DNA of 64,000 nt from Methanobacteriota archaeon (GTDB lineage: Archaea > Thermoplasmatota > Poseidoniia > Poseidoniales > Thalassarchaeaceae): the NCBI GenBank assembly GCA_002718995.2, contig PBGL02000009.1:460-64459 (forward strand), given 5' to 3'. The first letter of the stretch is position 1; each line of letters starts with the position of its first letter. A model generated the notes under the pieces. The model searched no databases, had not been told where the DNA came from, and worked only from the letters and a program-made list of their open reading frames with translations. Positions 32,910-55,202 of the stretch are shown here, in pieces. Both the position numbers and the translations under genes were made by a program.

Positions 32910-35900
32910 CTACTGATCTACGCCCTTCCAGGTTCCGGACATGGGATCGAATACCATGATGCTGCCATCTGGATTCTGGCAATAGACTGATCCGGATAGT
33001 TCTGTCCAGACCAGTTGCCCGTGCTCATTCATCCTTGCATCATCAGGAGCAGCAATTTTCGAGGCCTCAGGCTCGATTTTTGATTCTTCGAATGTCGGCA
33101 CTCGTTCATCCTCAACACTCTCATCGATGACTTCAGGTAGACTGGTTTCAATGGCCTCAGACTCATTCGCGTCAGATGAGGATTCGAGCTGCATTGGCTC
33201 CTCGATTACGGTTTGTCGAATATCGACAAGTGAAGCCTCCTCGGTTTGGATTGACTCCTTCACCGGCTCACTTACTGATCTTCTGCGCATCACCATCCAG
33301 CCACCGAGCCCTATTAGTGAGATTATGACCAAAGCCGCGCCCAAGAATGCGTACTTTGCCATGCTGTCTGGCTCCAAGTGCCTGTCTGGGTCCTCGGGGA
33401 ATGCATCGCCGTTATCCCCGTATCCGTCCCCGTCAGTGTCTGACCACTCAGTGGGATCAACAGGGAAGGCATCGACGCCGTCTTCGAAGTTGTCGTCGTC
33501 TGTGTCGGTATCGAGTCGATTGGATCCAGCAGCCTCCTCGTCAACATCAGATAGCCCGTCATTGTCGTCATCAGTATCGGAGTTGTCGCCAATCCCATCC
33601 ATGTCGCTATCTACCCACTCGCCGAAGTCTAGAGGGAGTGCGTCTTCGGAATCGGGGAATCCATCATTGTCGTCATCCTCGTCCTCTTCTGAGTCATTGC
33701 ACCCATCCACGTCATAGTCATTCTCCGAGGTGCTAGTCCAACCCAGCAAACCCTGCGGGCAATGGTCATAGGCATCATCGATACCGTCTCCGTCGTCATC
33801 TTCATCTATGTCATCATGGACTCTGTCACCATCCAAATCAGAATAGCATTCATCCGCCGATTCTGCTCCTTCCTGGAGGGTTATGTGCGATTCAGGGCAC
33901 TGTTCCAAAGTTGTGCTTGATGCCTCTGAAACATAGAAGTCAAGAGGTGCTGGTGTCTGCTGATCTTGGCCTTCGCTTGGTGCGTAGAATCCTGGTTGAG
34001 ATGGGTTACAGGACGTCTGCCCTGGGTCGGGCTGGAAGCTTCCTGGGCTGCACTTCTCTTGGCCCGAACTAGCCGGCGACTGAACGTAACTTCCGGGATC
34101 GGCATCCAGGCAGTCATAGGGGGATGTAGAGCCAGTCTGGGGATTGTAGGTTCCAGCAGGGCACTGAGACTGGTCACTCGAACCATCGGTACTAACGAAG
34201 TGGCCGGGGTCTGCATCCACACACGATGATCTTCCCGAATTGGGCTGGTATGTCCCTTCTGAGCAGGGGGTCTGCGAATCAGAGCCGGGGTTGGCAACAT
34301 AGTGGCCAGGATCGGCGGCGCTGCACTCCGCGGAGGAGTTGGCCCCTGTAGATGGGTTATAGGTGCCCTCTGGACAAGGGGTCTGGGATGACTGCCCAAG
34401 GCCATCGACGTAGTGACCGGCCTCTGCCTCGAAACAAGTTGCAGAACCAGTGGATGGTTGGTATGACCCAGTGTCGCACTCATACTGGGCTATTGACCCC
34501 TCTGAGCCGACGTAGTTCCCTGGGTCGGCTTCCAGGCAGGAGGCCTGGCCCGAGAGGGGCTGATAGGTTCCCTCCGAGCATGGTTCCTGATTGGCTTGGC
34601 CATCAGAAGAGGAATAGTTCCCCGGGTCTGCGCCTAGACATTCGGAAGAATCGCTGGAGCCCTCGGATGGGTTGTATGTTCCTGCGGGGCATGGTGTCGG
34701 AGAGGTGGCGGCGCTGTAGTCCACGTAGTGGCCGGCGGGAGAGTCCAGACAGGTGGTCTGACTCCCGTATGGCTGGTATGTGCCGGGAGAGCATGGTGTT
34801 TGAGAAGAAGAGCCCTCGGAGTCCACATAGTACCCAGGAGATGCCCCATCGCACTTGTCCTGGCCCGGTAGCGGCTGATACGTTCCTGCCGAACAGGGAG
34901 TCTGGGTGGTCGATGCGTTGGAGGGTACGTAGTTCCCTGGAGACGCATTCAGGCATGTTGACTGGCCGGTGCTTGGCTGGTAGGTGCCAGGGGCGCATGG
35001 AGTCTGGCTGGTAGAGTTGTAGTAGTAAACGAAGTATCCGGCATCGGCATCGATGCAGGAGGTTGAGCCAGAGGATGGCTGGTAGGTGCCAGGGGCGCAT
35101 GGAGTCTGGGAGTTGGAGGCGTTGGAAGGGACGTAGTACCCTGCGTCGGCGTTGATGCATGACGCCTGACCCGTCGAGTTCTGATACGTGCCTGCTGGAC
35201 ATGCCGTCTGACTGCTTGAGCCGTTGGATGGCACGTAGTATCCCATGGAGGCGGGAGTCTGCGTCGATGCGCCGCTGGATGGCACGTAGTTACCTAGAGA
35301 CGCCTGTACGCATGAGGTCTGGCCATACATTGGTTGGTAAGTGCCTGGCTCACACTGTGTCTGGGAAGAGGCGCCACTGGATGGCACATAGTTTCCAGGT
35401 GAGGCCCCCAGACAACTCGATTGCCTAGTCCCGGGCTGGTAAGTCCCCGGATAGCATTCGTACTGACGGACACCAATTTCGACTGCAATCTGGAATGTTG
35501 AGTTTCCGACTAAGCTTCCATCATCAGTCGAGAAGAGCCATAGGGACATCGAGTATGATCCGTTTCCCCAAGTCCTATTCACGTGGATGAAGGCTATCGA
35601 GTCGCCGGAGAATCCGGTGCCGTTTGTGGAAAACGTGTCTAGACCTGCGGAGGTGTTGCTTGTACTGGAGCCCAGTAGGGATATCGTAGAGTTGTAGACG
35701 GAGAGGTCGAAGTTGGCCCCACCAGGGCTGGTCAAGCTCAAAGAAAAGCCACTGTCTCGCGGGACATCGATAGCGAATAAGTCCCCATGATCCGCGGGGT
35801 TTTGACCTGCATTAAGTTCGCCGATGTATGTGGCGCTCCTGTCCGATAGATTCACTCTTGGATAGGAGTTACCCGAGAAGTCCGGAGCATCTCCGTATAG

Positions 35901-37970
35901 TTGATTTGTCTGGTTGCCGGGAGAAGAGTCGGCACATGTGATCTGCCCAATATCAGCCTGATACGTCCCTGCCCCACACTGGGTTTGAGCCTCGGCTGCG
36001 GAAGATGTGACGTAATGTCCAGCGGATGCTAGGTGGCATGCTGACTGTCCGGCCTCCGGCTGGTAAGACCCCGGGATACACTCGTTGTAGTATAGTGAAC
36101 CATGGACTGAGAAGTGCCCTGCGGGGGAATCCTGACATGCCAGCCTGCCCCATTGCCCTTCTTCGCAGTCGAGCCAACGGGCTGGATTGGAGGGGTATGG
36201 GTCGGAAGGTACGGGAACACCGTCCCCGTCTTCATCACCGGCGATATGGGTGTCGAGATCGTTCCAGATTCCATCGCCGTCGTGGTCCTGATCGGAGAAC
36301 GCCAAGTCGGCGCCGTCATCGAAATTCATCCAGTGGGGCACGAGTAGATCATCGCTGGTTCCATCCAGTTCCCCGCTCTGCCCTCCCCAGCATGCCAGGC
36401 TGTAGTTCTGAACTATCGCGCACGTAGATTCCTCGCCGGTTGCGATTGCCAGTACGGGCCCGCCTATACTGACATGAACTGGGACGTTTCCATCTTCCCC
36501 CGTGCAGCCGCTAGTAGAAATGGAAGAGCTGCAGCTACCATCCCCCCATTGACCATGCGTGTTGAGCCCCCAGCAATTCATTGAGCCATTGTCTAGAATT
36601 GCGCAAGTGTGCCAATATGTCCCATCAATCGAATTGGCTGTCCTCCCGGTGGAGAATGGGATGTTTTCCGAGCCATTGGTGACTGCCCCGTTCTCAGAGG
36701 AAACCGTGTAGGTTCTGCCCCAGCAGTAAACCGAACCATTCTCGAAGATTGAGCAGACACTGTATCCTGGAGTTGCCAGAGAGACCGCTCTCATCCCAGT
36801 GGAGTGGTTCGCAGTTACAGGGGTGTTGCTGTCGGAAGTCGTTCCGTCTGCTAGGGTACCGAATCCATTGTACCCCCAGCACTTCACGTCGCCAGTGTTC
36901 AGGAGTGCGCATGTGAAGTCATTACCTGCAGACACGGAAACTGCAGTCCTGTTGACCCCCAAATCGACATCGACGGGAGAGTTTCTATTGGTGTTGCTTC
37001 CATCACCCAACTGTCCGTGATTGTTCCTCCCCCAGCATTTTAGTGAGGCGTCATCCAAGATGGCGCAAGTGTGCGTGTTTCCATTCGAAACGGCTACTGG
37101 GATGTTATTGCCGAATTCCACGGTCCCATTCATCAGAGTAGTGCTGCCCAGGCCCAATTGGCCATAGTTGTTCATCCCCCTGCACCTCAGGGTTCTATTC
37201 TCCAGGATAGCACATTGGCCGGCTTTTGAAATGACCTCGTCTTCGGTATAATCCGCTACGCTGCTAGTTGATCCGTTCGATGTCACGGCCGAGAATGTGA
37301 CCAGTGACCCATTTGACATGACAAGTACGGGCGAACCGGAGTCAAGGTCTAGGATCGAGTTGCTGAATACTGAGCCCCTGTCAGATCCTGGTTGACTGGG
37401 GCCAATGGTTGAGTTGGTTGTGTTTGTGGTCGAGGTGGCCTCGGAAATTGACCACGAGTCCGTGCCCCATGCATCTCCAGATGCCCCTCCGTTGCCATCG
37501 ACAAAATTGACGGCTAGGTAGAATATTGCTGTTCCAGAGCCCGTCGAAGGGGCAGTCCAATCAACTGTCCATGATCGAGAGTTTGAGTTTGAATGGGTGA
37601 CTTCGCCGGATTGGAGTTTAGCGTTGGGCCCGGCATTGGTGAACGTGCCCGAGTTTGAGTCCAGGTTGAAGCCTCCCTTGGAGCCGGATGGCCCGCCGGA
37701 TCCGCCTATCGAAAGAGAGTAAGTAGAGCCTGCAGAGTATCCGGAGCTGGGCAGGCCGGTTAGAGTCGGGGAAACCGTTGACGAGCTGGAATGACATCCG
37801 CCCCCACCGCACCCATTGGACGAGCTACCGGTTTTTCCGCCACTGTAGGCGAAGGCTGAGTCGGGAACCGAGACCAGCATGATGGAAAACAGAAACATAG
37901 CAATTGCGATTCTTGATTTTCTACCATTCCAGCCTGCCATATTCATCAATCCATGCACTACATCGCTCAA
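32910..37970 (-). CDS. Giant mosaic surface protein: signal peptide, reeler-like domain, RCC1 beta-propeller, TSP3-like Ca-binding repeats, ephrin-receptor-like Cys repeats, PPC domain, TM anchor, acidic cytoplasmic tail
   Basis: 1686 aa. RCC1 blades include CWGRNNHGQLGDGS, CWGYNGFGTLADG and CWGLNTHGQWGDGS (about 36366-37223). Asp-rich DxDxDG runs lie at about 36201-36308 and 33381-33845. Sixteen C-x-x-GTYQ-x5-7-C repeats are present. A PPC-like segment, GELNAGQNPADHGDLFAIDV...FDLSVYN, is at about 35526-35873. The TM segment AFLGAALVIISLIGLGGWMV is at about 33291-33359. Confidence 0.7.
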   Translation of the reverse strand: MSDVVHGLMNMAGWNGRKSRIAIAMFLFSIMLVSVPDSAFAYSGGKTGSSSNGCGGGGCHSSSSTVSPTLTGLPSSGYSAGSTYSLSIGGSGGPSGSKGGFNLDSNSGTFTNAGPNAKLQSGEVTHSNSNSRSWTVDWTAPSTGSGTAIFYLAVNFVDGNGGASGDAWGTDSWSISEATSTTNTTNSTIGPSQPGSDRGSVFSNSILDLDSGSPVLVMSNGSLVTFSAVTSNGSTSSVADYTEDEVISKAGQCAILENRTLRCRGMNNYGQLGLGSTTLMNGTVEFGNNIPVAVSNGNTHTCAILDDASLKCWGRNNHGQLGDGSNTNRNSPVDVDLGVNRTAVSVSAGNDFTCALLNTGDVKCWGYNGFGTLADGTTSDSNTPVTANHSTGMRAVSLATPGYSVCSIFENGSVYCWGRTYTVSSENGAVTNGSENIPFSTGRTANSIDGTYWHTCAILDNGSMNCWGLNTHGQWGDGSCSSSISTSGCTGEDGNVPVHVSIGGPVLAIATGEESTCAIVQNYSLACWGGQSGELDGTSDDLLVPHWMNFDDGADLAFSDQDHDGDGIWNDLDTHIAGDEDGDGVPVPSDPYPSNPARWLDCEEGQWGRLACQDSPAGHFSVHGSLYYNECIPGSYQPEAGQSACHLASAGHYVTSSAAEAQTQCGAGTYQADIGQITCADSSPGNQTNQLYGDAPDFSGNSYPRVNLSDRSATYIGELNAGQNPADHGDLFAIDVPRDSGFSLSLTSPGGANFDLSVYNSTISLLGSSTSNTSAGLDTFSTNGTGFSGDSIAFIHVNRTWGNGSYSMSLWLFSTDDGSLVGNSTFQIAVEIGVRQYECYPGTYQPGTRQSSCLGASPGNYVPSSGASSQTQCEPGTYQPMYGQTSCVQASLGNYVPSSGASTQTPASMGYYVPSNGSSSQTACPAGTYQNSTGQASCINADAGYYVPSNASNSQTPCAPGTYQPSSGSTSCIDADAGYFVYYYNSTSQTPCAPGTYQPSTGQSTCLNASPGNYVPSNASTTQTPCSAGTYQPLPGQDKCDGASPGYYVDSEGSSSQTPCSPGTYQPYGSQTTCLDSPAGHYVDYSAATSPTPCPAGTYNPSEGSSDSSECLGADPGNYSSSDGQANQEPCSEGTYQPLSGQASCLEADPGNYVGSEGSIAQYECDTGSYQPSTGSATCFEAEAGHYVDGLGQSSQTPCPEGTYNPSTGANSSAECSAADPGHYVANPGSDSQTPCSEGTYQPNSGRSSCVDADPGHFVSTDGSSDQSQCPAGTYNPQTGSTSPYDCLDADPGSYVQSPASSGQEKCSPGSFQPDPGQTSCNPSQPGFYAPSEGQDQQTPAPLDFYVSEASSTTLEQCPESHITLQEGAESADECYSDLDGDRVHDDIDEDDDGDGIDDAYDHCPQGLLGWTSTSENDYDVDGCNDSEEDEDDDNDGFPDSEDALPLDFGEWVDSDMDGIGDNSDTDDDNDGLSDVDEEAAGSNRLDTDTDDDNFEDGVDAFPVDPTEWSDTDGDGYGDNGDAFPEDPDRHLEPDSMAKYAFLGAALVIISLIGLGGWMVMRRRSVSEPVKESIQTEEASLVDIRQTVIEEPMQLESSSDANESEAIETSLPEVIDESVEDERVPTFEESKIEPEASKIAAPDDARMNEHGQLVWTELSGSVYCQNPDGSIMVFDPMSGTWKGVDQ
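33945..35459 (-). repeat. Intragenic tandem array: 14 copies of a ~102-nt (~34-aa) two-cysteine repeat, with 2 further copies at about 35916-36173
   Basis: The motif (P/A/E)GTYQP recurs at aa 841, 876, 926, 960, 994, 1028, 1062, 1096, 1133, 1167, 1201, 1238, 1272 and 1309 of the 1686-aa protein. The consensus is C-x-x-G-T-Y-Q-P-x-x-G-x-x-x-C-x-x-A-x-P-G-x-Y-V-x-S-x(5-7)-Q-T-P. Confidence 0.85.
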
Positions 37971-38057: not shown

Positions 38058-39848
38058 TCATGCATCACTAGTGAAGACCTCTTTAGCATGACCGGGTATC
38101 TGAATTCCGGCCCCATCGAAAAGAGATTCCAGGGAGTCGGGCGGAGTCCCTTTTCTGGACATCTTTGCACGATGGCTGACAATCCTCCATGCGGCTTTGC
38201 TCCCTATTCCCGGAATCGCCTCCAGTTGCTGTTGCGTGGCATTGCTGAAATCGAGACCGGTCTCGACTGCGGATATACTGCGTTTTCCATGGCCCGTCAC
38301 CATGACGTCTGACCCAGTCTCGAGAGGGATCAAGTATGGAACTCCGACTAGTATCGGGTATGCCCCCATCTGCCTTCCGAAGGTGATGCCCGAGGACCCA
38401 TGAACAGAGGGGTCCCTGTGCTTGGGATCCATTACATGCTCGGGCAGCCTGATCCTATTGCCATTGGACTCCCACCATACGCCCCTCAGTATTGTGCCAG
38501 CAGGAAGCATCTGTTCCAGCATTGGCTGGTCTATCTCGTCCCTGACCCCAGTTTTGAAATCCCTGAATGCAGATTCGCTCACTTCTTGGAAACCCTGGCC
38601 TTCGACCTGCCTGATATTTATCCTTCTGAGAAGAAGCCCTTGTGCCTTTATTTTCCTTAGTAAATTCATGTTCATCCCGTAGGATTCTGCAGTCTCGCCG
38701 TTCAATCCAGCGATGAAGTTCAGACCGGGCAGCATCGCTGGAAGCCCCCTAGGGCCCCTCTCCCTGCCGAATTCGTTGATGTGTCGAATGGCAGTCATTA
38801 GCTGATCAGTGTCGCAATTCAGCCAATTCTCTTCATGCACACTGGGGTCTGCTGACTCCAGCCCAAAGGAAAGTACTGAGCCATCAGAGAGATATTCCAC
38901 CATGGCCTTCGTAATTTCCGTTGATTGCTCAATGTTTTCAGCGATTATCGAAGGATTGGCATTGTCCACATGCAGTACGTCGAGCCTGTCGTCCTCCCTG
39001 ATTTCACTGAGGACGCGTATTATTGGATCCGGGTTTGGTATCGGGTACTCTAGATCCTCGACACCCTCTGCTCGATATGTGTAGATGTCTGTAGCGCCGC
39101 CGATCCTAACGTTTCTGACACCTGAATCTAAAGCGGCAGATATCTCATCGATCACATCACTTTCAGTTCTCCATAGGGGTAATCCCTTCTTTGGTTCTAT
39201 GCAGAACTTGCACCCTCTCTTGAATCGGACACACCCCTGGTAGAGTTCGATTTCATACATCAGAGGGCCATGGGTTCCGTCCGGTGCGAGAATGTCTGGA
39301 TGTTCAGTTACTGCCTTGGATGAGGCCCCGGATAATGCCCATCTTGACCATTGTTCGGGAGTTCTTCGCTTATGCGCCCACTCTCCCGTCGATAGGTGGT
39401 GGTCAAGAGTAGCGTCGGTGTCTTGGACCGTGAGGAACAGGTTGGGCCTAAGGGGGGTCCAACCGTCATACCTCCAATGCCTGATTGCCCATCCCCCACA
39501 AAGAATGGGGGCATTCGTGGGCAGGGTCGATATGAGAGAGTTAGTTTCCTTCAGGCTTATTGGGGTCCCTCTGACATATTTCCCTGGAACCACTGCACCG
39601 GCGAGCAAGACAGCTCCTGAAAGGCCCCCCATTTCCCTTCTTACAGAGTCCATTCCTTCTGGATCGGACAATCTAGACTTGAATTTGATCCTCCATTCAT
39701 CTATGGTCATGTAAGTGTATTCTATGCCTCTACTCTCGAGTACCCCACAGATATACCTAACATGGAATCCAACGTAGTTCGGCACTCCAAAGGCTGCTGG
39801 CTCGTCCTCATAGCCATCTAGAACCAGCCATCCCTCGGGTGAGTCCAT
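38058..39848 (-). CDS. Radical SAM-type Fe-S protein with a C-terminal helix-hairpin-helix (archaeal COG1031-like)
   Basis: The Cys triad is QGCVRFKRGCKFCIEP (39199-39240). The C-terminus has LEAIPGIGSKAAWRIV (HhH). ORF-track start 39935 overlaps csl4 by 62 nt, so I prefer ATG 39848 (MDSPEGW). Confidence 0.6.
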   Translation of the reverse strand: MDSPEGWLVLDGYEDEPAAFGVPNYVGFHVRYICGVLESRGIEYTYMTIDEWRIKFKSRLSDPEGMDSVRREMGGLSGAVLLAGAVVPGKYVRGTPISLKETNSLISTLPTNAPILCGGWAIRHWRYDGWTPLRPNLFLTVQDTDATLDHHLSTGEWAHKRRTPEQWSRWALSGASSKAVTEHPDILAPDGTHGPLMYEIELYQGCVRFKRGCKFCIEPKKGLPLWRTESDVIDEISAALDSGVRNVRIGGATDIYTYRAEGVEDLEYPIPNPDPIIRVLSEIREDDRLDVLHVDNANPSIIAENIEQSTEITKAMVEYLSDGSVLSFGLESADPSVHEENWLNCDTDQLMTAIRHINEFGRERGPRGLPAMLPGLNFIAGLNGETAESYGMNMNLLRKIKAQGLLLRRINIRQVEGQGFQEVSESAFRDFKTGVRDEIDQPMLEQMLPAGTILRGVWWESNGNRIRLPEHVMDPKHRDPSVHGSSGITFGRQMGAYPILVGVPYLIPLETGSDVMVTGHGKRSISAVETGLDFSNATQQQLEAIPGIGSKAAWRIVSHRAKMSRKGTPPDSLESLFDGAGIQIPGHAKEVFTSDA

Positions 39849-39873: not shown

Positions 39874-41205
39874 TCACCGCTTCGACCGGTTTCGTCCTTC
39901 ACGGCCCCTTCTGCTGGGGCCTCCTTTCCTGCCACCGCCTGATGGCTTCGACTCCTCTACGACAATCTTCCTGCCGCCTATCTCTGCTCCATTCATCTTC
40001 TTGGCTGCGGATAATCCTTCGTCCCTGTCTGAGAATGTAACGAATGCGAAGCCCTTGGAGCGACCCGATTCCCTGTCCATTGCAATGTGGACTTCCTTCA
40101 GCTTGCCATGGGCCGAGAATGCCTTGGTCAGTTCATCCTCCGATGTATCATATGAGAGCCTGCCAACGAATAGCTTGGTCCCCATTGTGGCCTGAGCCTT
40201 GGCCCTCATCTCATTCATCGTCTCCCTCTCCTTGGCGAGTTCTTCCTTTGTTGCCCTGCCGTCCTTCACCTTGTCCATGCAATCGCGGCAGCGGATCGGT
40301 TTGCCTGGCGTGGGCTTGAAGGGGACCTGAGTGTCACATCCGCAAAGGGTGCATACGGCCTTGTGCATTTCTCGCCTTGGTCCGCCCTGGCCGCCGCGCC
40401 CACCTGGCCTTCCCCCTCTGCCCCCTCTGGTGGCTTTGGCACTGGCTGGCATTTCATGGGAAGCTCCCCTCCTGTAATCTGCCAGTGGGGACAGGTATGG
40501 CCTCGCACCGTCATGACCGAGTCCGGCCTCTGCCTCTGGGGACCATCTCTCTCCTGACCTGTTGAGCTTTGATTTGTTGGACCTTATCTCGTGCCCGTGA
40601 CCGAATCCGTCTGAGAGGACCCTGTATGCCGAATAGTCGCATCTGGGGCACTTGACGTTGAAGTCGGGCTTCTCGTCGGATGCCACGAGGTCTGCGCCGC
40701 ACTGCGTGCACAAAGCGGAAAGAACTCCGAGGTTGGTGCTCCCCTTGGTTGTGGCCTTGAGTATCGGATCGGATTTGGTTATCTTGGCCCTAACGATATC
40801 TCTCATCCTCATAGCATCCCCTGGTGAGGGAGTGAATCTATCGACGACCTCTGAGACGTGAATGTCTGCAAAGAGTTTCATTGCAGGGAGGCTCCTGTGA
40901 CCGCCCTCCTTGCTCTCTACGTGCAGTATCCTGATTTCGGCAACGTTTTCGTTTAGTCGATTAACTTCGCCGATAACAATATCCCCGACAGTTGGAGAAT
41001 TTATTGGTGGCCTTGAGGGGTCTACTGAAATGTTACCATCATCCAAAACTAGCCTCCCGTTTACCACTGCTACGAAGCCAGCACTGGCCTCCGTGAGCCC
41101 GTTTCCTGCTTCTGCGCCCGCTGGGACGTCGACAGGAGTTCCGGGCGTGACAAGGTCACCGACAGTAGCCGTCATCGGCCGGGCGACCGGACGACCCCCT
41201 ATCAA
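39874..41205 (-). CDS. csl4: Exosome complex RNA-binding cap subunit Csl4 fused to an RGG linker, a CxxC-x17-CxxC zinc finger and an RRM domain
   Basis: 443 aa. Residues 1-205 are Csl4: GDIVIGEV, IHVSEVVDRF, MRDIVRAKI and the Zn ribbon CTQC...CPRC. Residues 258-276 read TRGGRGGRPGGRGGQGG. Residues 285-308 read CTLC-x17-CRDC. Residues 343-419 form an RRM with RNP2 LFVGRL and RNP1 KGFAFVTF. An RGG-like tail follows. Confidence 0.8.
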   Translation of the reverse strand: MIGGRPVARPMTATVGDLVTPGTPVDVPAGAEAGNGLTEASAGFVAVVNGRLVLDDGNISVDPSRPPINSPTVGDIVIGEVNRLNENVAEIRILHVESKEGGHRSLPAMKLFADIHVSEVVDRFTPSPGDAMRMRDIVRAKITKSDPILKATTKGSTNLGVLSALCTQCGADLVASDEKPDFNVKCPRCDYSAYRVLSDGFGHGHEIRSNKSKLNRSGERWSPEAEAGLGHDGARPYLSPLADYRRGASHEMPASAKATRGGRGGRPGGRGGQGGPRREMHKAVCTLCGCDTQVPFKPTPGKPIRCRDCMDKVKDGRATKEELAKERETMNEMRAKAQATMGTKLFVGRLSYDTSEDELTKAFSAHGKLKEVHIAMDRESGRSKGFAFVTFSDRDEGLSAAKKMNGAEIGGRKIVVEESKPSGGGRKGGPSRRGREGRNRSKR

Positions 41206-41218
41206 CGGTACGGACGGG

Positions 41219-41833
41219 CTATGGGGGGGTCAGTCTCCAGAAACCGGCCTTAGTAACTCCCCTGGAGCTACGGTGATGGTCGAATGACGCGGGAATCGCG
41301 AAGTCTGCTTCGCCATACTTCTCTACGGACCATCCCGCCTCCTCGAACCTTGTACGGATGTGCTTCGCATCGGAGCTGTGCATGATGTGTGAGACTACTC
41401 CAATGGACTCTATCAGGTCCAAGAAGGGAGCATCTGCCTTCTCTTTCTGCCTCCCCCACGGAGGATTGGAAATCACCAAATCGATGTCGGTCAGATCGGA
41501 ATCCAACGAAGAGACATCGGATTCCAGAACCACGCATGATTTTTCTCCTCCCAATGATTCGGCGTTCTTTCTTGATACCTCGCAGCATCTGCTATCTGAA
41601 TCGACTAGAATAGCCCTATTTGCGCCGAGATGCAGCGCCCCGATTCCAAGTATTCCGTTTCCTGATCCTAAATCAATGATGGAAGTCCCTTCAGAGAGGT
41701 CGCCAAATGCAGCAATATCGAAAATCCATCTGGCAGCCAACTCTCCCGAAGTGGTGTACTGTTCTAGGCTGACATCAGGATTTTCACACTTTTCCAACTT
41801 TGATAACAGCATGGACAGCTGTCGCAGGCGCAT
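41219..41833 (-). CDS. METTL5-like N6-adenine RNA methyltransferase
   Basis: 204 aa. It has the SAM motif IIDLGSGNGILG and the catalytic DLVISNPPWG (NPPW). Confidence 0.7.
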   Translation of the reverse strand: MRLRQLSMLLSKLEKCENPDVSLEQYTTSGELAARWIFDIAAFGDLSEGTSIIDLGSGNGILGIGALHLGANRAILVDSDSRCCEVSRKNAESLGGEKSCVVLESDVSSLDSDLTDIDLVISNPPWGRQKEKADAPFLDLIESIGVVSHIMHSSDAKHIRTRFEEAGWSVEKYGEADFAIPASFDHHRSSRGVTKAGFWRLTPP

Positions 41834-50338: not shown

Positions 50339-50405
50339 GACGGTTTTTTCGAACTCCAACAGGTTGAGATTATACAGGGCCGTAAATTGGCTCTCTAGGA
50401 GAGCC

Positions 50406-53400
50406 ATGCGAGGAGACTGGTCAGGAAGGCAGTCAGTACTAGCAGCCCTGATGCTCATTCTTCTTGACTTCTCAGGGGGCGCTACCGCAGTAGTTCCCTC
50501 TGAGAATATTGACGCAGGAGAGTTTGAAATCGATATCCCGGATGACTCTCCGCCGCCCCTCTATTGTGGCGATGTTATTTGTGAGGCCAAGGATAGGACG
50601 CCATATTTGCCGCCTTACGATGTTGATTGGCCGGTGCAAGAGCCCGGGTGGTGGTTCGAATATTGGTACGATCTTGACAACAATGGGATGGACGATAGGC
50701 TTCAGTGGATAATTTCCGGAGAACGAGATTCAGTGTCGACTAGCGCGATAATGGGCGAAGATGGCAGAATGACTGTCGCTATTTTCGTTGATTATGCTTG
50801 GCACCCGGGAACTGCCGACATAAACCGGCTGAAGGGCGTTCTGATGGATCACGGATGGGAGGAATACGGGTCCTACTTCAGGACTGTCGAGATTATTGAC
50901 ACTGTTATCGTCGAACATGTGCCAGTTAGTTCCCTTATGGACATTCTAATGCTTGATGGCGTGGTCCTAGTGGAGCAGCAAAATGTTCTGGTCCCCTACC
51001 TGAATACTGCGGCCAGGGGTTCCAAAGTTAGAGACTCGGATGTTTATAGTGAAACCATGAGGGACTATGGCTACGACGGTTCGGGAGTTGTAATCGCTAT
51101 TGCTGACACGGGCGTTGACAACGAGCACTTCTCTCTCGATGATTTCTCTGACAACAACGACGACAATGAAGCTGAGCCTGATGAGTTGCCGGATCCCAAG
51201 TGGGTAGCTGGCTGCGATGCCACTTCGTGGAATCAACAAGACTGCGATGACGGGGGGGACGACCCTGATGATGGCGATGGACATGGGACTCACGTTGCGG
51301 GAATAGCCCTTGGAACGGGAGACTCTGACAGAGACAACCAAGGTTATGCTCCGGGAGCGTATCTCGTTGATATCAAGGTCATGACTGATGCAGGGGCTTC
51401 CAATTCTGGGTACACTGTAGCCGGAATTAACTGGGCCGTTCAGAATGTCAATACAGACTGGGGAAATAATGACTCCAGCAGAGGTATCGACATACTTTCG
51501 ATGTCTTTCGGCAGCAGTTCAAATCCGACTGGAGATGATCCGGGAGATAATGGAACTGGGGCGGATGCAAACGCCGTGAATGCTGCTTCAGATGCTGGAA
51601 TAGTCTGTGTGGCTGCTATAGGTAATGATGGATACAGGAGAGTGACATCTGTAGGGGCGGCGGACTCGGCGATTACGGTCGGGGCCATAGATGACAAGGC
51701 GAGCATAGAGAGGGGTGACGACTCGATTGCTTCTTACTCAAACTCTGGGCCAAGGGAGGATGACGGTGATGACGATGAGTGGGACGAATTGAAGCCCGAC
51801 GTTGTGGCCCCCGGCTCCAATGTCATGTCTGCCCAGCATGCTGCCTCAAGTTCGCAGTTACCCGGCTCCCCCAAGCCACTAGCCAGCGACAATTACGTTC
51901 AGATGTCCGGAACGAGCATGTCGACTCCGGCGGTAGCCGGATTCATTGCTGGGATGCTCCAAATGGACGATAGCCTGAGCCCCCAGGAAGTGAAAGACAT
52001 ACTGCGAAACAATTCTGAGACCAGAGGGGAGGCTTCCGAACCCAGTGTAAGTAACAGGTGGAATGATCAATATGGATTTGGGATCGTGGATGGTGAGATG
52101 GTACTACAAGCGGTCCTAGGGGACACAGGAGGAGGAGATCCCGGAGGAAACCAGACGGAGCCACCCCCTTCGGGTGCGGGAGAGTGGATAGTAATCGAGA
52201 CACCAGAGGAGGACTCTTGGTTGGTCGAGGGGGAGACTTACAGCGCAAGAGGGCACATAGACGAAGATGCCGATACAAATGGGACTATTGAGGAAGTTAA
52301 GGTGAAAATCACCTATACGCACAGACCGGATGACTCCCCCAGGCAAACAGAAGTACTGGTAGACTGGCATGCTGCCCAAGGGACTATCAATTGGTCCACT
52401 CCATTCAGCGTCCCTGAATTCAGCGAGGACGATATCAACATCGAGGACGTGATTGTTGAAGTCCAAGCCAAGAATCAATTCGAACAATGGAGTAAGATAG
52501 AGAAGAGCGAACATCAAGTTGGACTGGTCGATATTGGATTGGGGGGGCCTAGTGGGCAAACTCCGGTTTCTGGCAATACCAATGTGTACGGGACATGGGA
52601 GTCGGTAAATGGAGGAACGTTGCAATGGAGGCTCGGAACTGATTCATGGGAAACCATAGACCAATTTGGAGGAAGTGGGAGCGGGTCCGGGGACTGGTCG
52701 GTCAATTGGGATACCACCGATGTGAACGATGGATTCTACCGGATCTCAGTCAGGATGATCAGTGGGGACGGAGTGCACTCAGAGGAAGTAAGGAGGACCG
52801 TTGAGGTCGATAACGACCCTCCAGCCCCCGACCTAATCTTCAGGAGCGGGATTTCAGTTGATGAATATGGCATCACCATCTCAGAAGCTTATGTCAATAC
52901 TTTCCTTGAAGTGAGGTGCGAGGTCAGGAATGACGGTGATCTGGATGCCACAGAGGTGAGCATCTACCTGAAAGAGAATGGAGCCAGGAAAGACGAGATA
53001 GTTGTACCGAGCATTGGTAGCGGTGATATCGTCGAGATCGTCCTATACTGGAACCCCTCCACGGTGGGTGAGAAAACGCTCACTATTTCCCTTGACCCCT
53101 CCAACAGCATTGATGAGATCAATGAGGACGATAATGAGCAGTCCGTAACATTCCCAATCATCCAAAGGCCGCAAGGAATAGATCTGGCACTGAGGGAGGG
53201 CGCAGTTAGGACAGAGCCATCAATCCCCAGACCCTCAGAGCAATTTCTCGTCACGGCCAGAGTAGACAACCTAGGATCTAGCGATGCGATCAATGTCGAG
53301 GCGACCCTCGAGATAAGAAACTCCCTAGGCTGGGAGTCTGTTTCTTCTACTGTAATGTCCCTGGTGGTCGGACAGGGTGCCTCGCAAGTTTCATTCGCTC

Positions 53401-55202
53401 ATCGAGTAAACGACACGGGGCCAATAGAAGTCAGAATTACATTAGCCGGTTCAACATTGGCTGACCTGGACTGGTCGAATAACCAGATAGAATCTGTAAT
53501 TCTAGTTGATGAGACTAGCCTTACTGGTTCCAGATTGGCCTCATTCTCCGTTGGCGAAATTCCTGTCGAGATCGTTGACTTGGACGAAGAAGGCGGCATT
53601 GTGATTACGGAGAGAGAAGGCAGCCTTGGACTCTACAGGATGAATCTTAATCGTGCTCTGACGCCATGCACTAATGTTTTCGAGGAAATGTGGACCGGGG
53701 ACATTTCTATCGTTAGTTCTGAGGACGGTTTTGCTCATGTTGCCTGGACCAGAAGGTACCTCGATTCATCTGGATACTTCAGGCAGACCGTGAGCTACAC
53801 TACACTGGATTCTAGTTGCCAACTGACGCCAATACAGGACATAATGCCGCCAATCCTGCTATCCGATGGCAAGTACTGGGGTTTGGACATGGACGTGAAA
53901 GGCTCTGAAATCGTTGTGGCCGGGTACCACAGGGATATTTTCACTGCGGGCACCCAACAAGACATAACGAGTGTTTTCGTGCTGATTTCGGACGCCCCGA
54001 CCAAGAGCCAAGATTGGGGGCTGAACCCAGCGGCGGTCAGTGAGCTTGACCTAGTTGCTGGTATGACTGACCCAGTTGACATTGAATTTGGAGACGAGGA
54101 CGTTCACCTACTTTACCAGTCATTGAGAAATGACACTACCGGGATAGACCGGTTGGGGCTATGGTACGCACACGGGCTGCCGGATCAATCGTCATGGGGC
54201 TACAGGAAGGCCGTTGGGGATCATGCCTTCTCTCCTGAAATGGTTGTCTCAGTGGATGATGATGAGGAAGTAATCGTGGCAGTCTGGGGAGAGGGGGGAG
54301 AGGATGATTCAGAGATAGTAGCAATTATTGGCGATTCCACATTTACCCCAATAGACGACAATGAAGTGAGGGTCCCTTCCAGAGGGCTAGGGATGATTGA
54401 GTTGTTAGAAACCTCTAGGGGGACTCAGGTTTTCTTTGACTTCGTCGGCCCGGGTGGCCCACAGATGCAATACGGACTGATCAATGCCGAAGAGGGGTGG
54501 ATCGGGATTTCGGATAGGATTGGACTTGGTAGACTGAGCGTCGTTGACAGATCGCCGACAGGCGGAGAGGCCGTAATACTCCATACGTCTCAAAGCGGGT
54601 GGCAAATCAGATCCCTGGTAGATGACTCTTCGCCGAATTCTGGAGATAGTGATCTACTAGAGATGATAAGAATCTCACTTGGATTGGACGAGCAGAATTT
54701 CAACGTACTTCTTGGGGGTACGGCCATTACGGTAATTTTCCTCAGTGTGATAGTCTTGCTTACGATGACGGCGAGGGCAGTAAGGTGGATTGGCAGTAGG
54801 AGGCGTACTTCTGCGCCCGGCTTAGTAATGCTTGAGGAGGATGTTGTGGACGTCATTCTCGAGACCGATATTTCTGTCAGTTCCAGTGAGGTGGAATTAG
54901 TCGAGGAAGAGGAGGAAGAGGAGGCCTCCCTTGGAGAGGGGGCTTCCGAGAGGAAGCGGAGAAGAGAGGGTAGGGCGAGGTCGGCCCATGCAGAATCGCT
55001 TCCCCCGCTGCCACCTCCTGCCATAACCCCCCCTCCAGCCGGCATGCCGATTCCGGAAGGGTCTCCGAAAACTGATTTCCCGCCCCCACTGCAAATGAAC
55101 AGGAGCGTTCTTTGCGATTCTTGCGGTGGAAGGTTCGAAGTCTCCAGTGGGCTAAAGATGACCAAGTGTCCCGTCTGCGATGAAAGAATCGACCTGTGGT
55201 GA
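50406..55202 (+). CDS. Giant membrane-anchored subtilisin-like (S8) serine protease with an I9-like propeptide, CARDB domains, a large uncharacterised beta-rich region, a TM anchor and a cytoplasmic tail ending in a zinc ribbon
   Basis: The catalytic triad contexts are VIAIADTGVD (about 51091), HGTHVAGIA (about 51283) and SGTSMSTPAVAG (about 51906). CARDB-like segments lie at about 52880-53160 and 53240-53500. The TM segment is at 54703-54775. The tail has an EEEEEEE run, the proline run 54993-55095, and CDSC...CPVC at 55110-55199. TTG 50364 is the ORF-track start. ATG 50406 gives a signal-peptide-like MRGDWSGRQSVLAALMLILL. Confidence 0.8.
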   Translation: MRGDWSGRQSVLAALMLILLDFSGGATAVVPSENIDAGEFEIDIPDDSPPPLYCGDVICEAKDRTPYLPPYDVDWPVQEPGWWFEYWYDLDNNGMDDRLQWIISGERDSVSTSAIMGEDGRMTVAIFVDYAWHPGTADINRLKGVLMDHGWEEYGSYFRTVEIIDTVIVEHVPVSSLMDILMLDGVVLVEQQNVLVPYLNTAARGSKVRDSDVYSETMRDYGYDGSGVVIAIADTGVDNEHFSLDDFSDNNDDNEAEPDELPDPKWVAGCDATSWNQQDCDDGGDDPDDGDGHGTHVAGIALGTGDSDRDNQGYAPGAYLVDIKVMTDAGASNSGYTVAGINWAVQNVNTDWGNNDSSRGIDILSMSFGSSSNPTGDDPGDNGTGADANAVNAASDAGIVCVAAIGNDGYRRVTSVGAADSAITVGAIDDKASIERGDDSIASYSNSGPREDDGDDDEWDELKPDVVAPGSNVMSAQHAASSSQLPGSPKPLASDNYVQMSGTSMSTPAVAGFIAGMLQMDDSLSPQEVKDILRNNSETRGEASEPSVSNRWNDQYGFGIVDGEMVLQAVLGDTGGGDPGGNQTEPPPSGAGEWIVIETPEEDSWLVEGETYSARGHIDEDADTNGTIEEVKVKITYTHRPDDSPRQTEVLVDWHAAQGTINWSTPFSVPEFSEDDINIEDVIVEVQAKNQFEQWSKIEKSEHQVGLVDIGLGGPSGQTPVSGNTNVYGTWESVNGGTLQWRLGTDSWETIDQFGGSGSGSGDWSVNWDTTDVNDGFYRISVRMISGDGVHSEEVRRTVEVDNDPPAPDLIFRSGISVDEYGITISEAYVNTFLEVRCEVRNDGDLDATEVSIYLKENGARKDEIVVPSIGSGDIVEIVLYWNPSTVGEKTLTISLDPSNSIDEINEDDNEQSVTFPIIQRPQGIDLALREGAVRTEPSIPRPSEQFLVTARVDNLGSSDAINVEATLEIRNSLGWESVSSTVMSLVVGQGASQVSFAHRVNDTGPIEVRITLAGSTLADLDWSNNQIESVILVDETSLTGSRLASFSVGEIPVEIVDLDEEGGIVITEREGSLGLYRMNLNRALTPCTNVFEEMWTGDISIVSSEDGFAHVAWTRRYLDSSGYFRQTVSYTTLDSSCQLTPIQDIMPPILLSDGKYWGLDMDVKGSEIVVAGYHRDIFTAGTQQDITSVFVLISDAPTKSQDWGLNPAAVSELDLVAGMTDPVDIEFGDEDVHLLYQSLRNDTTGIDRLGLWYAHGLPDQSSWGYRKAVGDHAFSPEMVVSVDDDEEVIVAVWGEGGEDDSEIVAIIGDSTFTPIDDNEVRVPSRGLGMIELLETSRGTQVFFDFVGPGGPQMQYGLINAEEGWIGISDRIGLGRLSVVDRSPTGGEAVILHTSQSGWQIRSLVDDSSPNSGDSDLLEMIRISLGLDEQNFNVLLGGTAITVIFLSVIVLLTMTARAVRWIGSRRRTSAPGLVMLEEDVVDVILETDISVSSSEVELVEEEEEEEASLGEGASERKRRREGRARSAHAESLPPLPPPAITPPPAGMPIPEGSPKTDFPPPLQMNRSVLCDSCGGRFEVSSGLKMTKCPVCDERIDLW

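What the first reader, a model, noticed from the sequence alone, without database searches (positions are those of the whole stretch)
39874..41205. Exosome cap subunit Csl4 fused to an RGG linker, a CxxC-x17-CxxC zinc finger and a canonical RRM
**Seen in sequence.** One uninterrupted 443-aa ORF carries four modules.
- A complete Csl4 at aa 1-205, with the S1-like core and the CTQC...CPRC ribbon (nt 40591-41205).
- A Gly/Arg linker, TRGGRGGRPGGRGGQGG.
- A CTLC-x17-CRDC finger (nt 40282-40353).
- A textbook RRM with RNP2 LFVGRL and RNP1 KGFAFVTF (nt 39949-40179), followed by a GGRKGGPSRRGREGR tail.

**Established knowledge.** Csl4 is one of the RNA-binding caps of the archaeal exosome. RRM_1 domains are abundant in eukaryotes and present in some bacteria, but to my knowledge they are very uncommon in archaea.

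**Inference.** This lineage has bolted a eukaryote/bacteria-style single-stranded-RNA-binding module and RGG boxes onto the exosome entry cap. That could change substrate recruitment or promote condensate-like behaviour. The gene sits in a conserved-looking RNA context, with a METTL5-like methylase immediately upstream.
Basis: partly seen in the sequence, partly recalled or inferred. Interest (0 to 1): 0.72.

Follow-up and report, generated by a model that had tools for sequence, protein, structure and literature searches.

The report
Exosome cap Csl4 with built-in RNA binders
In a group of very abundant ocean archaea, the Csl4 "lid" protein of the RNA-degrading exosome has permanently gained a zinc finger and a eukaryote/bacteria-style RNA-binding (RRM) domain; the fusion is real and conserved, but it is common across these archaea, already partly labelled in databases, and its function is untested.

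Summary
One gene on the minus strand (ATG 41175, stop 39874; 433 aa, not the 443-aa TTG-extended ORF) encodes:
- a complete Csl4 (N-terminal domain, S1, four-Cys zinc ribbon);
- a strongly conserved 60-aa segment that is predicted disordered;
- a Gly/Arg spacer;
- a CxxC-x17-CxxC zinc finger and a helix;
- a canonical RRM and an Arg-rich tail.

It is not an assembly artefact. 77 of 80 species-level Thalassarchaeaceae (Marine Group IIb) genomes carry the same uninterrupted architecture in the same slot: METTL5-like methyltransferase, then Csl4 fusion, then radical SAM. All eight zinc-ligand cysteines are invariant and the RNP aromatic residues are 97-100% conserved.

Positional orthologues in other marine Thermoplasmatota keep Csl4 and the conserved segment but swap the C-terminal cassette:
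- two RRMs in Marine Group IIa / Ca. Poseidonia (at least 304 protein clusters);
- two zinc fingers plus a long RGG tail;
- one RRM.

Many two-RRM forms are already named Csl4 by NCBI or JGI. The window's form is mostly named "CxxC-x17-CxxC domain-containing protein". I found no paper describing either.

The most likely function is an exosome cap carrying its own tethered single-stranded-RNA capture modules. I could not show directly that these genomes encode the Rrp41/Rrp42 core. Rating: new variant of a known kind, moderate interest.

The parts
39874..41175 (-). Whole gene for the Csl4-zf-RRM fusion: 433 aa from ATG 41175, stop TGA 39874-39876. The mechanical ORF extends to TTG 41205.
   Evidence: Relatives start at the equivalent Met. 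The upstream DNA is a conserved non-coding element.
41011..41175 (-). Csl4 N-terminal domain (aa 1-55), with the TPG and GxG signatures.
   Evidence: Covered by NCBIfam NF034126. Pfam ECR1_N hits in orthologues. AF2 pLDDT 84-91. Foldseek match to 2BA1_A.
40732..41010 (-). S1-like OB domain of Csl4 (aa 56-148).
   Evidence: Pfam S1 is only weak (E=0.019). The fold is modelled at pLDDT mostly 60-89 and matches Csl4 chains.
40618..40731 (-). Csl4 zinc-ribbon domain (aa 149-186): CTQC...CPRC.
   Evidence: C156, C159, C176 and C179 are invariant in 71 genomes. Canonical Csl4 (2BA1, 179 aa; NCBIfam model of 180 positions) ends about ten residues after this domain.
40441..40617 (-). Conserved post-Csl4 segment (aa 187-245): LSDGFGHG...LNRxGxRW..AE..LGHDGARPYLSPxADxRRGxxH. 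Predicted disordered. Shared by all cassette variants.
   Evidence: Invariant residues include W211, R225, P226, Y227 and R235-G237. AF2 pLDDT below 50. No Pfam or PDB match.
40378..40440 (-). Gly/Arg-rich (RGG) spacer (aa 246-266), variable in length between species.
   Evidence: 26-37 aa between the conserved motif and the finger, G+R about 44%. P0001 differs from the window by one extra RGG unit.
40261..40377 (-). CxxC-x17-CxxC zinc finger (aa 267-305; TIGR04272 / PF23477).
   Evidence: C275, C278, C296 and C299 are invariant. It is the most conserved region, majority-residue frequency 0.80. AF2 pLDDT about 83. The domain family binds zinc in M. mazei small proteins (PMC12704099).
40180..40260 (-). 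Long alpha-helix connecting the finger to the RRM (aa 306-332). It forms one unit with the finger.
   Evidence: AF2 helix at 310-331. The finger-plus-helix unit is 52-58% identical to both units of P0130.
39946..40179 (-). Canonical RRM (aa 333-410): RNP2 LFVGRL, RNP1 KGFAFVTF.
   Evidence: Pfam RRM_1 E=6.5e-19. F336, F376 and F378 are 97-100% conserved. AF2 pLDDT about 89. Foldseek TM 0.92 to the CIRBP RRM 5TBX.
39877..39945 (-). Arg/Gly-rich basic C-terminal tail (aa 411-433).
   Evidence: Always Arg-rich, variable in sequence, predicted disordered.
41176..41218 (-). Intergenic region with a conserved promoter-like element: CCGTACCGTTGATAGGGGGTCGTCCGGTCGCC, with a TATA-like TTGATA about 25-30 nt before the ATG.
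   Evidence: It is conserved at a fixed distance in 57 of 58 sequences compared, with no codon periodicity. A leaderless transcript is inferred, not shown.
41219..41833 (-). Upstream gene: METTL5-family (PH1948 / Ta1320-like) methyltransferase.
   Evidence: Directly upstream in 65 of 65 testable genomes and in every variant lineage examined.
38058..39848 (-). Downstream gene: radical SAM protein with a C-terminal helix-hairpin-helix. Probable start is ATG 39848, 25 nt after the Csl4 stop.
   Evidence: Adjacent in 71 of 74 genomes. No PDB relative.

Best explanation
This is the Csl4 cap subunit of the archaeal RNA exosome in a Thalassarchaeaceae (Marine Group IIb, Poseidoniales) genome. It has permanently acquired a roughly 240-residue C-terminal appendage.

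Shown:
- Residues 1-190 are a complete Csl4 (N-terminal domain, S1, four-Cys zinc ribbon).
- The appendage consists of a highly conserved segment that is predicted disordered, a G/R-rich flexible spacer, a zinc-binding CxxC-x17-CxxC finger joined by a helix to a canonical RRM, and a basic tail.
- All parts are under purifying selection across the family.

Inferred:
- The Csl4 body sits on the Rrp41/Rrp42 ring as in A. fulgidus.
- The finger-RRM unit and its G/R flanks hang on a flexible tether of about 80 residues near the channel entrance, up to three per complex.
- They capture single-stranded or partly structured RNA and raise its local concentration at the S1 pore, for 3'-5' phosphorolysis or A-rich tailing.
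- This would do in cis what DnaG does for the Sulfolobus Csl4-exosome and what RRM/zinc-knuckle adaptors do in trans for eukaryotic exosomes.
- The conserved disordered segment most likely folds on binding a partner, either a protein or the ring itself.
- Sister lineages keep this segment but exchange the cassette (two RRMs, two fingers plus RGG, or one RRM). Selection therefore appears to act on having RNA-binding modules tethered to Csl4, not on one particular module.
For: Identity as Csl4:
- NCBIfam equivalog above its cutoff.
- Full-length match to PDB 2BA1.
- The AF2 model's best Foldseek hits are archaeal, yeast and human Csl4 chains.
- All variants hit the same equivalog model.

Real, fixed fusion:
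- 120 of the 120 best homologues are full length.
- 77 of 80 species genomes have one intact ORF with one finger and one RRM.
- The exact protein sequences P0043 and P0003 recur in 115 and 52 index blocks of the assembly collection.
- The short calls are contig-end truncations.

Functional modules:
- The eight zinc cysteines are 100% conserved and the RNP aromatics 97-100%.
- The finger and the middle segment are the most conserved regions.
- The RRM superposes on CIRBP at TM 0.92.
- The finger family binds zinc (PMC12704099).

Orthology of the variants: same position after the METTL5-like gene and a shared middle segment.

Precedents: DnaG needs Csl4 to bind the exosome and adds poly(A) affinity (PMC3672285). 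Csl4 binds aRNase J in Pyrococcus (PMC7144898).
Against: - No Rrp41, Rrp42, Rrp4 or DnaG gene was seen in the window or in about 0.5 Mb of related loci. Their presence in Poseidoniales rests only on indirect literature evidence: Rrp41 and Rrp42 markers were present in 46 of about 49 archaeal clades in a data set that includes Poseidoniales.
- There are no RNA-binding, complex-assembly or expression data.
- The Csl4 N-terminal domain, which should contact the ring, is the least conserved folded part (majority-residue frequency 0.58).
- AF2 gives no information on where the appendage sits relative to the Csl4 body (pTM 0.41).
- RRMs can also serve as protein-interaction domains.
Confidence: 0.6

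Rival explanations
1. The appendage is mainly a protein-recruitment platform, not an RNA catcher. The conserved disordered segment, and possibly the RRM acting as a UHM-like protein-binding domain, would dock another RNA-metabolism factor on the cap. Candidates are DnaG, aRNase J, a helicase, the neighbouring METTL5-like methyltransferase, or the ribosome.
For: - The middle segment is as conserved as the folded domains yet predicted disordered, which is typical of a docking motif.
- It is retained in all variants while the RNA-binding cassettes are exchanged.
- The non-A variants share a second short C-terminal motif, (S/K)RE..A..EEG.
- Csl4 is a known docking site for DnaG and aRNase J.
Against: - The RNP1 and RNP2 aromatic residues that stack on RNA bases are 97-100% conserved. 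UHM-type RRMs usually lose them (own knowledge).
- The flanking G/R and Arg-rich tracts, and the fact that every alternative cassette is a nucleic-acid-binding type, point to RNA.
- The two ideas do not exclude each other.
Confidence: 0.15
2. The protein works outside the exosome as a free-standing RNA chaperone or ribosome-biogenesis factor. Its S1, finger, RRM and RGG modules would act together, for example in rRNA maturation alongside the METTL5-like rRNA methyltransferase, or as a cold-adaptation RNA chaperone like CIRBP or the cyanobacterial Rbp proteins.
For: - The core subunits were not demonstrated here.
- There is tight, invariant linkage to a METTL5 homologue.
- The closest solved RRM is cold-inducible CIRBP, 46% identical, and NCBIfam's Rbp_regulator model gives a sub-threshold hit.
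- The N-terminal domain is the least conserved folded region.
Against: - The full three-domain Csl4 body, including the N-terminal signature residues, is retained in all lineages and scores as an equivalog.
- No second, canonical Csl4 was seen among the homologues examined, so this is probably the only Csl4 available to the exosome.
Confidence: 0.12
3. Artefact: the ORF is a chimeric assembly join or hides a frameshift, and the two halves are really separate genes.
For: - The G/R tract is encoded by GGN-rich repeats where short-read contigs often break (L089-L095 start inside the gene).
- Public databases hold 115-155-aa 'RNA-binding protein' calls for the C-terminal part.
Against: - The same intact ORF occurs in 77 of 80 species genomes, including long-read contigs of 0.7-1.6 Mb.
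- Every short call examined is truncated by a contig end, and its frame stays open back to the contig edge.
- Identical protein sequences recur in dozens of independent assemblies.
Confidence: 0.01

Closest known systems
Canonical archaeal Csl4 (A. fulgidus AF_0206, PDB 2BA1/3M7N; S. solfataricus and P. abyssi Csl4)
   Same: N-terminal domain, S1 domain and four-Cys zinc ribbon. Full-length sequence and fold match.
   Different: Canonical Csl4 ends about ten residues after the zinc ribbon (about 180 aa). This protein continues for roughly 240 more residues with a conserved disordered motif, G/R spacer, zinc finger, helix, RRM and basic tail.
Two-RRM Csl4 of Marine Group IIa / Ca. Poseidonia and other marine Thermoplasmatota (e.g. 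P0129, P0124, P0132; NCBI MEE3134389.1)
   Same: Positional orthologue downstream of the same METTL5-like gene. Same Csl4 body and the same conserved middle segment. RRM-type appendage.
   Different: Two RRMs and no zinc finger, plus a C-terminal (S/K)RE..A..EEG motif that the window's form lacks. Already named Csl4 by NCBI and JGI, whereas the window's form is mostly named 'CxxC-x17-CxxC domain-containing protein'.
Archaeal DnaG on the Csl4-exosome (Sulfolobus solfataricus)
   Same: An extra RNA-binding component positioned on the cap through Csl4 that changes substrate affinity (PMC3672285, PMC4227792).
   Different: DnaG is a separate Toprim-domain protein bound non-covalently. Here the extra binders are unrelated domains (RRM, zinc finger) fused covalently to Csl4. 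Functional equivalence is an inference.
Eukaryotic exosome adaptors that combine an RRM with zinc knuckles (NEXT: RBM7 + ZCCHC8 + MTR4; TRAMP: Air1/2 + Trf4 + Mtr4). Comparison from own knowledge.
   Same: RRM and zinc-finger modules deliver RNA to an exosome.
   Different: Those act in trans through a helicase and are not homologous assemblies. No helicase link was shown here. This is an analogy only.
Glycine-rich single-RRM proteins (CIRBP/hnRNP A18, plant GR-RBPs, cyanobacterial Rbp, bacterial RRM proteins)
   Same: RRM followed by a G/R-rich tail. Closest solved RRM is CIRBP, 46% identity and TM 0.92. NCBIfam Rbp_regulator hit at 79.5 bits.
   Different: Those are free-standing proteins of 90-170 aa. 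The NCBIfam score is below the 100-bit cutoff. The nearest non-Csl4 RRMs found are at most 51% identical and come from mixed sources (Planctomycetota, algal plastid-type RNPs), so no donor can be named.
CxxC-x17-CxxC (TIGR04272 / PF23477) small zinc proteins of Methanosarcina
   Same: Same domain family, above both curated cutoffs. Zinc binding shown experimentally for two M. mazei members (PMC12704099).
   Different: Those are stand-alone small proteins of unknown function. Here the finger is one module in a Csl4 fusion and is always followed by a conserved helix.

Membership tests
Csl4 (exosome cap subunit; NCBIfam NF034126, arCOG00676) | Full-length match to the curated equivalog model, above its trusted cutoff | tested here: met
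   102.1 bits against a cutoff of 90. Residues 18-201 align to model positions 2-178 of 180. Some close relatives fall just below the cutoff (P0071, 83.6 bits).
Csl4 (exosome cap subunit; NCBIfam NF034126, arCOG00676) | Three-domain architecture: N-terminal domain, S1/OB domain, zinc ribbon | tested here: met
   The PDB 2BA1 chain aligns at residues 5-177 of 179. The AF2 body has pLDDT mostly 75-91, and the top Foldseek hits are Csl4 chains from archaeal, yeast and human exosomes. Pfam EXOSC1 and S1 alone are sub-threshold.
Csl4 (exosome cap subunit; NCBIfam NF034126, arCOG00676) | Four zinc-ligand cysteines in the C-terminal ribbon (archaeal type) | tested here: met
   C156, C159, C176 and C179 are invariant in 71 genomes. 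They are lost in the P0132 lineage.
Csl4 (exosome cap subunit; NCBIfam NF034126, arCOG00676) | Physical assembly on an Rrp41/Rrp42 hexamer encoded in the same genome | not testable with these tools
   No core genes in the window or the held loci. I had no seed sequence and no whole-genome access. Only indirect literature support.
RRM (Pfam PF00076 RRM_1) | Profile match above the gathering score, with RNP2 and RNP1 motifs and their aromatic residues | tested here: met
   68 bits against 20.7. LFVGRL and KGFAFVTF are present. F336, F376 and F378 are 97-100% conserved.
RRM (Pfam PF00076 RRM_1) | Beta-alpha-beta-beta-alpha-beta fold | tested here: met
   The AF2 secondary structure is E-H-E-E-H-E at pLDDT about 89. 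TM 0.89-0.95 to solved RRMs.
RRM (Pfam PF00076 RRM_1) | Binds single-stranded RNA | not testable with these tools
   Inferred only, from the conserved RNP aromatic residues.
CxxC-x17-CxxC domain (TIGR04272 / PF23477 zf_Tbcl_2) | Profile match above the cutoff, with exact CxxC-x17-CxxC spacing | tested here: met
   48.6 bits against 36, and 49.3 bits against 27. C275/C278 and C296/C299 are separated by 17 residues and invariant.
RNA-binding regulator Rbp (NCBIfam NF058537) | Score above the curated cutoff | tested here: not met
   79.5 bits against a cutoff of 100. It resembles these proteins but is not filed as a member.
METTL5-family methyltransferase (upstream neighbour) | Full-length similarity to METTL5, PH1948 and Ta1320 | tested here: met
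   1WY7 E=6.4e-24, 6H2U E=4.1e-19, 1NE2 E=3.6e-14. Query residues 2-189 of 204 are covered. The rRNA m6A activity itself was not tested.

The most novel reading that the evidence does not exclude
Planktonic marine Thermoplasmatota (MGIIa, MGIIb and relatives) have turned the exosome cap subunit Csl4 into a modular 'adaptor-in-cis'. An ancestral conserved docking segment is followed by lineage-specific, exchangeable RNA-binding cassettes: RRMs probably acquired by horizontal transfer, CxxC-x17-CxxC fingers, and RGG tracts. These cassettes would set substrate choice for the exosome. That would be a prokaryotic counterpart of the eukaryotic NEXT/TRAMP-type adaptors, and one of the few cases where RRMs sit in core archaeal RNA metabolism.
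Probability: 0.35. Interest if true: 0.7.

Novelty: new variant of a known kind. Interest (0 to 1): 0.5.

Why it matters
Marine Group II archaea are among the most abundant archaea in the surface ocean and remain uncultured, so their RNA metabolism is known only from sequence.

If the reading is right, their exosome carries its own RRM and zinc-finger substrate catchers on the cap. No characterised archaeal exosome is described that way. It mirrors, in a single polypeptide, the adaptor logic of eukaryotic exosomes.

It also documents RRMs, which are rare in archaea to my knowledge, fixed in a core housekeeping complex across a whole order, with cassette swapping between families.

Practical points:
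- Many MGIIb copies are mis-named 'CxxC-x17-CxxC domain-containing protein' because they fall just under the Csl4 model cutoff.
- Contig breaks in the G/R-coding repeat create spurious small 'RNA-binding protein' entries.
- Because the proteins are soluble-looking and modular, the hypothesis can be tested by recombinant reconstitution without culturing the organism.

Tried and rejected
- **Frameshift, chimera or split gene: rejected**.
- **Stand-alone RRM genes in Poseidoniales as a source of the module.** The 115-155-aa 'RNA-binding protein' entries start at internal Met codons of the fused gene, and the four 125/155-aa contigs inspected begin inside it. They are not evidence for free RRM genes.
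- **Donor of the RRM: unresolved.** The exhaustive representative search was swamped by multi-RRM eukaryote-type proteins. The best single-RRM neighbours are at most 51% identical and come from Planctomycetota and algal plastid-type RNPs. The window's RRM is equally distant from RRM1 and RRM2 of the two-RRM variant.
- **Core exosome genes.**
  - Pfam annotation of 43 of the 49 ORFs called in the window found none.
  - tblastn with remembered E. coli RNase PH and S. solfataricus Rrp41 sequences against the window and all 88 loci fetched by then found nothing.
  - I had no way to query whole MGII genomes.
- **A canonical short Csl4 in related lineages.** The only short hits (P0378, P0379, P0380) are truncated fused genes. 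The nearest unfused Csl4 was not reached.
- **First genome scan failed.** The 12-sequence alignment had no stretch conserved enough. I repeated it with 4 sequences, which returned only MGIIb loci.
- **Remote homology of the middle segment:** none in Pfam, and only chance-level matches in PDB.
- **Literature.**
  - Ten full-text searches found no description of an RRM- or zinc-finger-fused Csl4, or of the MGII exosome.
  - Koonin et al. 2001 (PMC311015) is not held. So I could not check the Csl4-methyltransferase linkage in other archaea that I remember from it.
- **The first AF2 run** (13 sequences) modelled the S1 and zinc-ribbon parts poorly. A more diverse 29-sequence alignment fixed that.
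Full report
**1. The observation**

The window has one uninterrupted ORF at 39874..41205 on the minus strand.
- **Csl4.** The NCBIfam Csl4 equivalog NF034126 covers residues 18-201 at 102.1 bits, above its 90-bit cutoff. A. fulgidus Csl4 (PDB 2BA1, 179 aa) aligns over its whole length at E=7.9e-15.
- **Zinc finger.** TIGR04272 and Pfam PF23477 match residues 278-313 above both cutoffs.
- **RRM.** Pfam RRM_1 matches residues 345-414 at 68 bits, E=6.5e-19.
- **Caveat.** Pfam's own EXOSC1 and S1 models are only marginal, E about 0.02.

A two-step AlphaFold2 prediction supports the same reading.
- The first alignment, 13 sequences, was too shallow.
- The second, 29 more diverse sequences, gave a confident Csl4 body, finger, long helix and RRM.
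- Foldseek against the PDB ranks A. fulgidus Csl4 first (E=3e-15), followed by yeast and human Csl4 chains taken from exosome complexes.
- The RRM superposes on the CIRBP RRM at TM 0.92.

**2. Corrections to the observation**

- **Start codon.** The true start is almost certainly ATG 41175, giving 433 aa. Relatives start at the equivalent Met. The 40 nt upstream are conserved as DNA at a fixed distance, with no codon periodicity. They contain a TATA-like TTCATA/TTGATA about 25-30 nt before the ATG. That suggests a dedicated promoter and a leaderless mRNA. The TTG 'start', and the 'PFIGG' N-terminal extensions seen in some database calls, are this element translated.
- **The 'linker' is not just a linker.** Residues 187-245 (LSDGFGHG...LNRxGxRW..AE..LGHDGARPYLSPxADxRRGxxH) are among the most conserved in the protein. 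AF2 predicts them disordered. They match nothing in Pfam or the PDB.
- **The G/R tract.** It is conserved in composition but varies between species by RGG-unit insertions and deletions, 26-37 aa.

**3. The fusion is real**

The best 120 homologues are all full length, 388-479 aa at 59-98% identity, and come from Poseidoniales MAGs. A scan of one genome per GTDB species returned 80 loci, and every one with a family- or genus-level label is Thalassarchaeaceae/MGIIb (Ca. Thalassarchaeum, MGIIb-O1; plus Marine Group II MED-G33 and MED-G37); the rest carry only order-level or generic names such as UBA173, which is 97% identical to the window.

In 77 of those 80 loci the gene is one intact ORF with exactly one finger and one RRM. 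The other three are two contig-end truncations and one gene with an ambiguous base.

The short 'RNA-binding protein' calls of 115-155 aa in public databases are not separate genes. The four contigs inspected begin inside the gene, and in the two translated the frame stays open back to the contig edge. Short-read contigs tend to break in the GGN-rich repeat that encodes the G/R tract.

Across 71 species genomes, conservation is as follows.
- All eight zinc-ligand cysteines are invariant.
- The RNP aromatic residues F336, F376 and F378 are 97-100% conserved.

| Region | Majority-residue frequency |
|---|---|
| Zinc finger | 0.80 |
| Middle segment | 0.76 |
| Zinc ribbon | 0.74 |
| S1 | 0.73 |
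| RRM | 0.71 |
| N-terminal domain | 0.58 |

**4. Genomic context**

The upstream gene is a genuine METTL5 homologue. It matches PH1948 at E=6e-24, human METTL5 at E=4e-19 and Ta1320 at E=4e-14. It lies directly upstream on the same strand in 65 of 65 testable genomes.

A radical SAM protein with a C-terminal helix-hairpin-helix follows in 71 of 74 genomes. After that comes a giant surface protein of about 1700 aa.

The rest of the window is ordinary housekeeping and contains no other exosome subunit.

**5. A wider family with swappable cassettes**

The exhaustive representative search collapsed all MGIIb proteins into one 50%-identity cluster. It also exposed about nine further clusters that begin with a Csl4 body.

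| Variant | Architecture after Csl4 and the middle segment | Examples |
|---|---|---|
| A (the window) | G/R spacer, one finger, helix, one RRM, Arg-rich tail | P0071, P0043 |
| B | two RRM_1 domains, no finger | P0124, P0125, P0126, P0128, P0129, P0132, P0133 |
| C | two CxxC-x17-CxxC fingers and a long RGG tail, no RRM | P0130, on a 3.0-Mb contig at 71% GC |
| D | one RRM and a Lys-rich tail | P0147 |

- Pfam and NCBIfam confirm these architectures.
- Eight of the nine non-A clusters (P0125 was not scanned) hit the Csl4 equivalog model over its full length at 92-123 bits.
- All share the post-Csl4 conserved segment, with an invariant Trp.
- Where context is available, they sit directly after the same METTL5-like gene. 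So they are positional orthologues, not paralogues.
- The two-RRM form fills at least 304 clusters at 90% identity. It carries NCBI names such as 'exosome complex RNA-binding protein Csl4 [Candidatus Poseidonia sp.]' and JGI names such as 'RNA recognition motif-containing protein/exosome complex RNA-binding protein Csl4'.
- The window's form is mostly named 'CxxC-x17-CxxC domain-containing protein' or 'hypothetical'. Many copies score just under the Csl4 cutoff, for example P0071 at 83.6 bits.
- The finger-plus-helix unit of the window's protein is 52-58% identical to both units of P0130.
- The window's RRM is equally distant from RRM1 and RRM2 of the two-RRM form.
- All non-A variants end in a shared (S/K)RE..A..EEG motif that the window's form lacks.

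**6. Mechanism**

Shown: this is a complete Csl4 with a conserved appendage of zinc finger, RRM and G/R tracts.

Inferred: the Csl4 body caps the Rrp41/Rrp42 ring as it does in A. fulgidus. The finger-RRM unit, on a disordered tether of about 80 residues and present in up to three copies per complex, captures single-stranded RNA and feeds it to the S1 pore.

Precedents from the literature:
- In Sulfolobus, DnaG needs Csl4 to bind the exosome and adds affinity for A-rich RNA (PMC3672285, PMC4227792).
- In Pyrococcus, Csl4 binds aRNase J (PMC7144898).
- The CxxC-x17-CxxC domain binds zinc in M. mazei small proteins, though its function is unknown (PMC12704099).

The conserved disordered segment is best read as a docking motif for an unidentified partner.

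The main gap is that I could not show that these genomes encode Rrp41, Rrp42 or Rrp4. None lies in the sequence I hold. The only support is indirect. [quoted passage not shown]

**7. Rival explanations**

- A protein-recruitment role for the appendage is compatible with the main model and may well coexist with it.
- An exosome-independent role as an RNA chaperone or ribosome-biogenesis factor cannot be excluded without the core genes. It is disfavoured because the full Csl4 body is retained in every lineage and no second Csl4 was seen.
- An assembly artefact is excluded.

**8. Novelty**

Ten full-text searches found no description of this architecture. Annotation pipelines already label many of the two-RRM orthologues as Csl4, so the domain combination is visible in databases.

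This is therefore a new, undescribed variant of a known component. It is an order-wide trait of marine Thermoplasmatota and not an oddity of this genome. Interest is moderate: it is notable for archaeal RNA biology and for the evolution of RRMs outside eukaryotes, and it can be tested by reconstitution. It is still domain accretion onto a known scaffold, with no functional data.

Noticed in passing
window 41176-41218 (-), and the equivalent region of L009-L088: A conserved DNA element of about 30 nt lies immediately upstream of the Csl4 start at a fixed distance: CCG(T/G)ACCGTT(C/G)ATAGGGGG..CCGGTCG. It has a TATA-like core flanked by short inverted repeats (GACCG...CGGTC). It may be a promoter plus a regulator-binding site. 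Some database gene calls translate it as a 'PFIGG' N-terminal extension.
   Followed up: partly
L027-L042 and L044-L067, 40-60 nt upstream of the Csl4 start: Different MGIIb sub-lineages carry different perfect hairpins with the same TAC loop in the 40-60 nt upstream of the Csl4 start, between the methyltransferase gene and the conserved promoter-like element: GAGCC-TAC-GGCTC in one, GCCGTGC-TAC-GCACGGC in another. The stem sequence changes but pairing is kept, which suggests a functional terminator or processing hairpin. The window's own sub-lineage lacks it.
   Followed up: no
window 38058-39848 (-): A radical SAM protein of about 596 aa with a C-terminal helix-hairpin-helix follows Csl4 in 71 of 74 genomes. 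It has no relative in the PDB and no specific family assignment. It may be an uncharacterised nucleic-acid-modifying enzyme linked to the METTL5-Csl4 pair.
   Followed up: partly
window 32910-37970 (-): A giant 1686-aa protein is conserved at this position in relatives, where Pfam reports RCC1 repeats, WD40_RLD and faint Ephrin_rec_like hits. It has an N-terminal hydrophobic segment, Cys-rich 'GxYQ' repeats, an Asp-rich calcium-binding-like region and a C-terminal membrane anchor. Probably a cell-surface protein.
   Followed up: no
P0132 lineage (L007 10001-11410): This two-RRM Csl4 lineage has lost zinc-ribbon cysteines (CSNSG...CHTSG replacing CxxCG...CxxC). The other lineages examined keep all four.
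   Followed up: no
C-termini of P0124, P0125, P0126, P0128, P0129, P0130, P0132, P0133 and P0147: All non-MGIIb variants share a short acidic motif, (S/K)RE..A..EEG, at or near the C-terminus, whether the cassette is RRMs or zinc fingers. The MGIIb form lacks it. It may be a second docking motif.
   Followed up: no
L089-L095; GenBank HIA39672.1, HIO95128.1 and similar entries: Short-read contigs often break inside the GGN-rich repeat that encodes the G/R tract. This leaves truncated 115-155-aa gene calls that are deposited as stand-alone 'RNA-binding protein' or 'RNA recognition motif-containing protein'.
   Followed up: yes
window 50364-55202 (+) and 20215-23430 (-): Two further very long ORFs (1612 aa and 1071 aa) were not annotated here. 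A 1593-aa protein with Peptidase_S8 and CARDB domains lies at the equivalent edge of the syntenic locus L004, which may correspond to the first of these.
   Followed up: no
window 61371-62711 (-): The thymidylate kinase domain occupies only residues 6-176 of a 446-aa ORF. The remaining roughly 270 residues have no Pfam match at E<=1e-5. This may be a fusion or an over-long ORF call.
   Followed up: no
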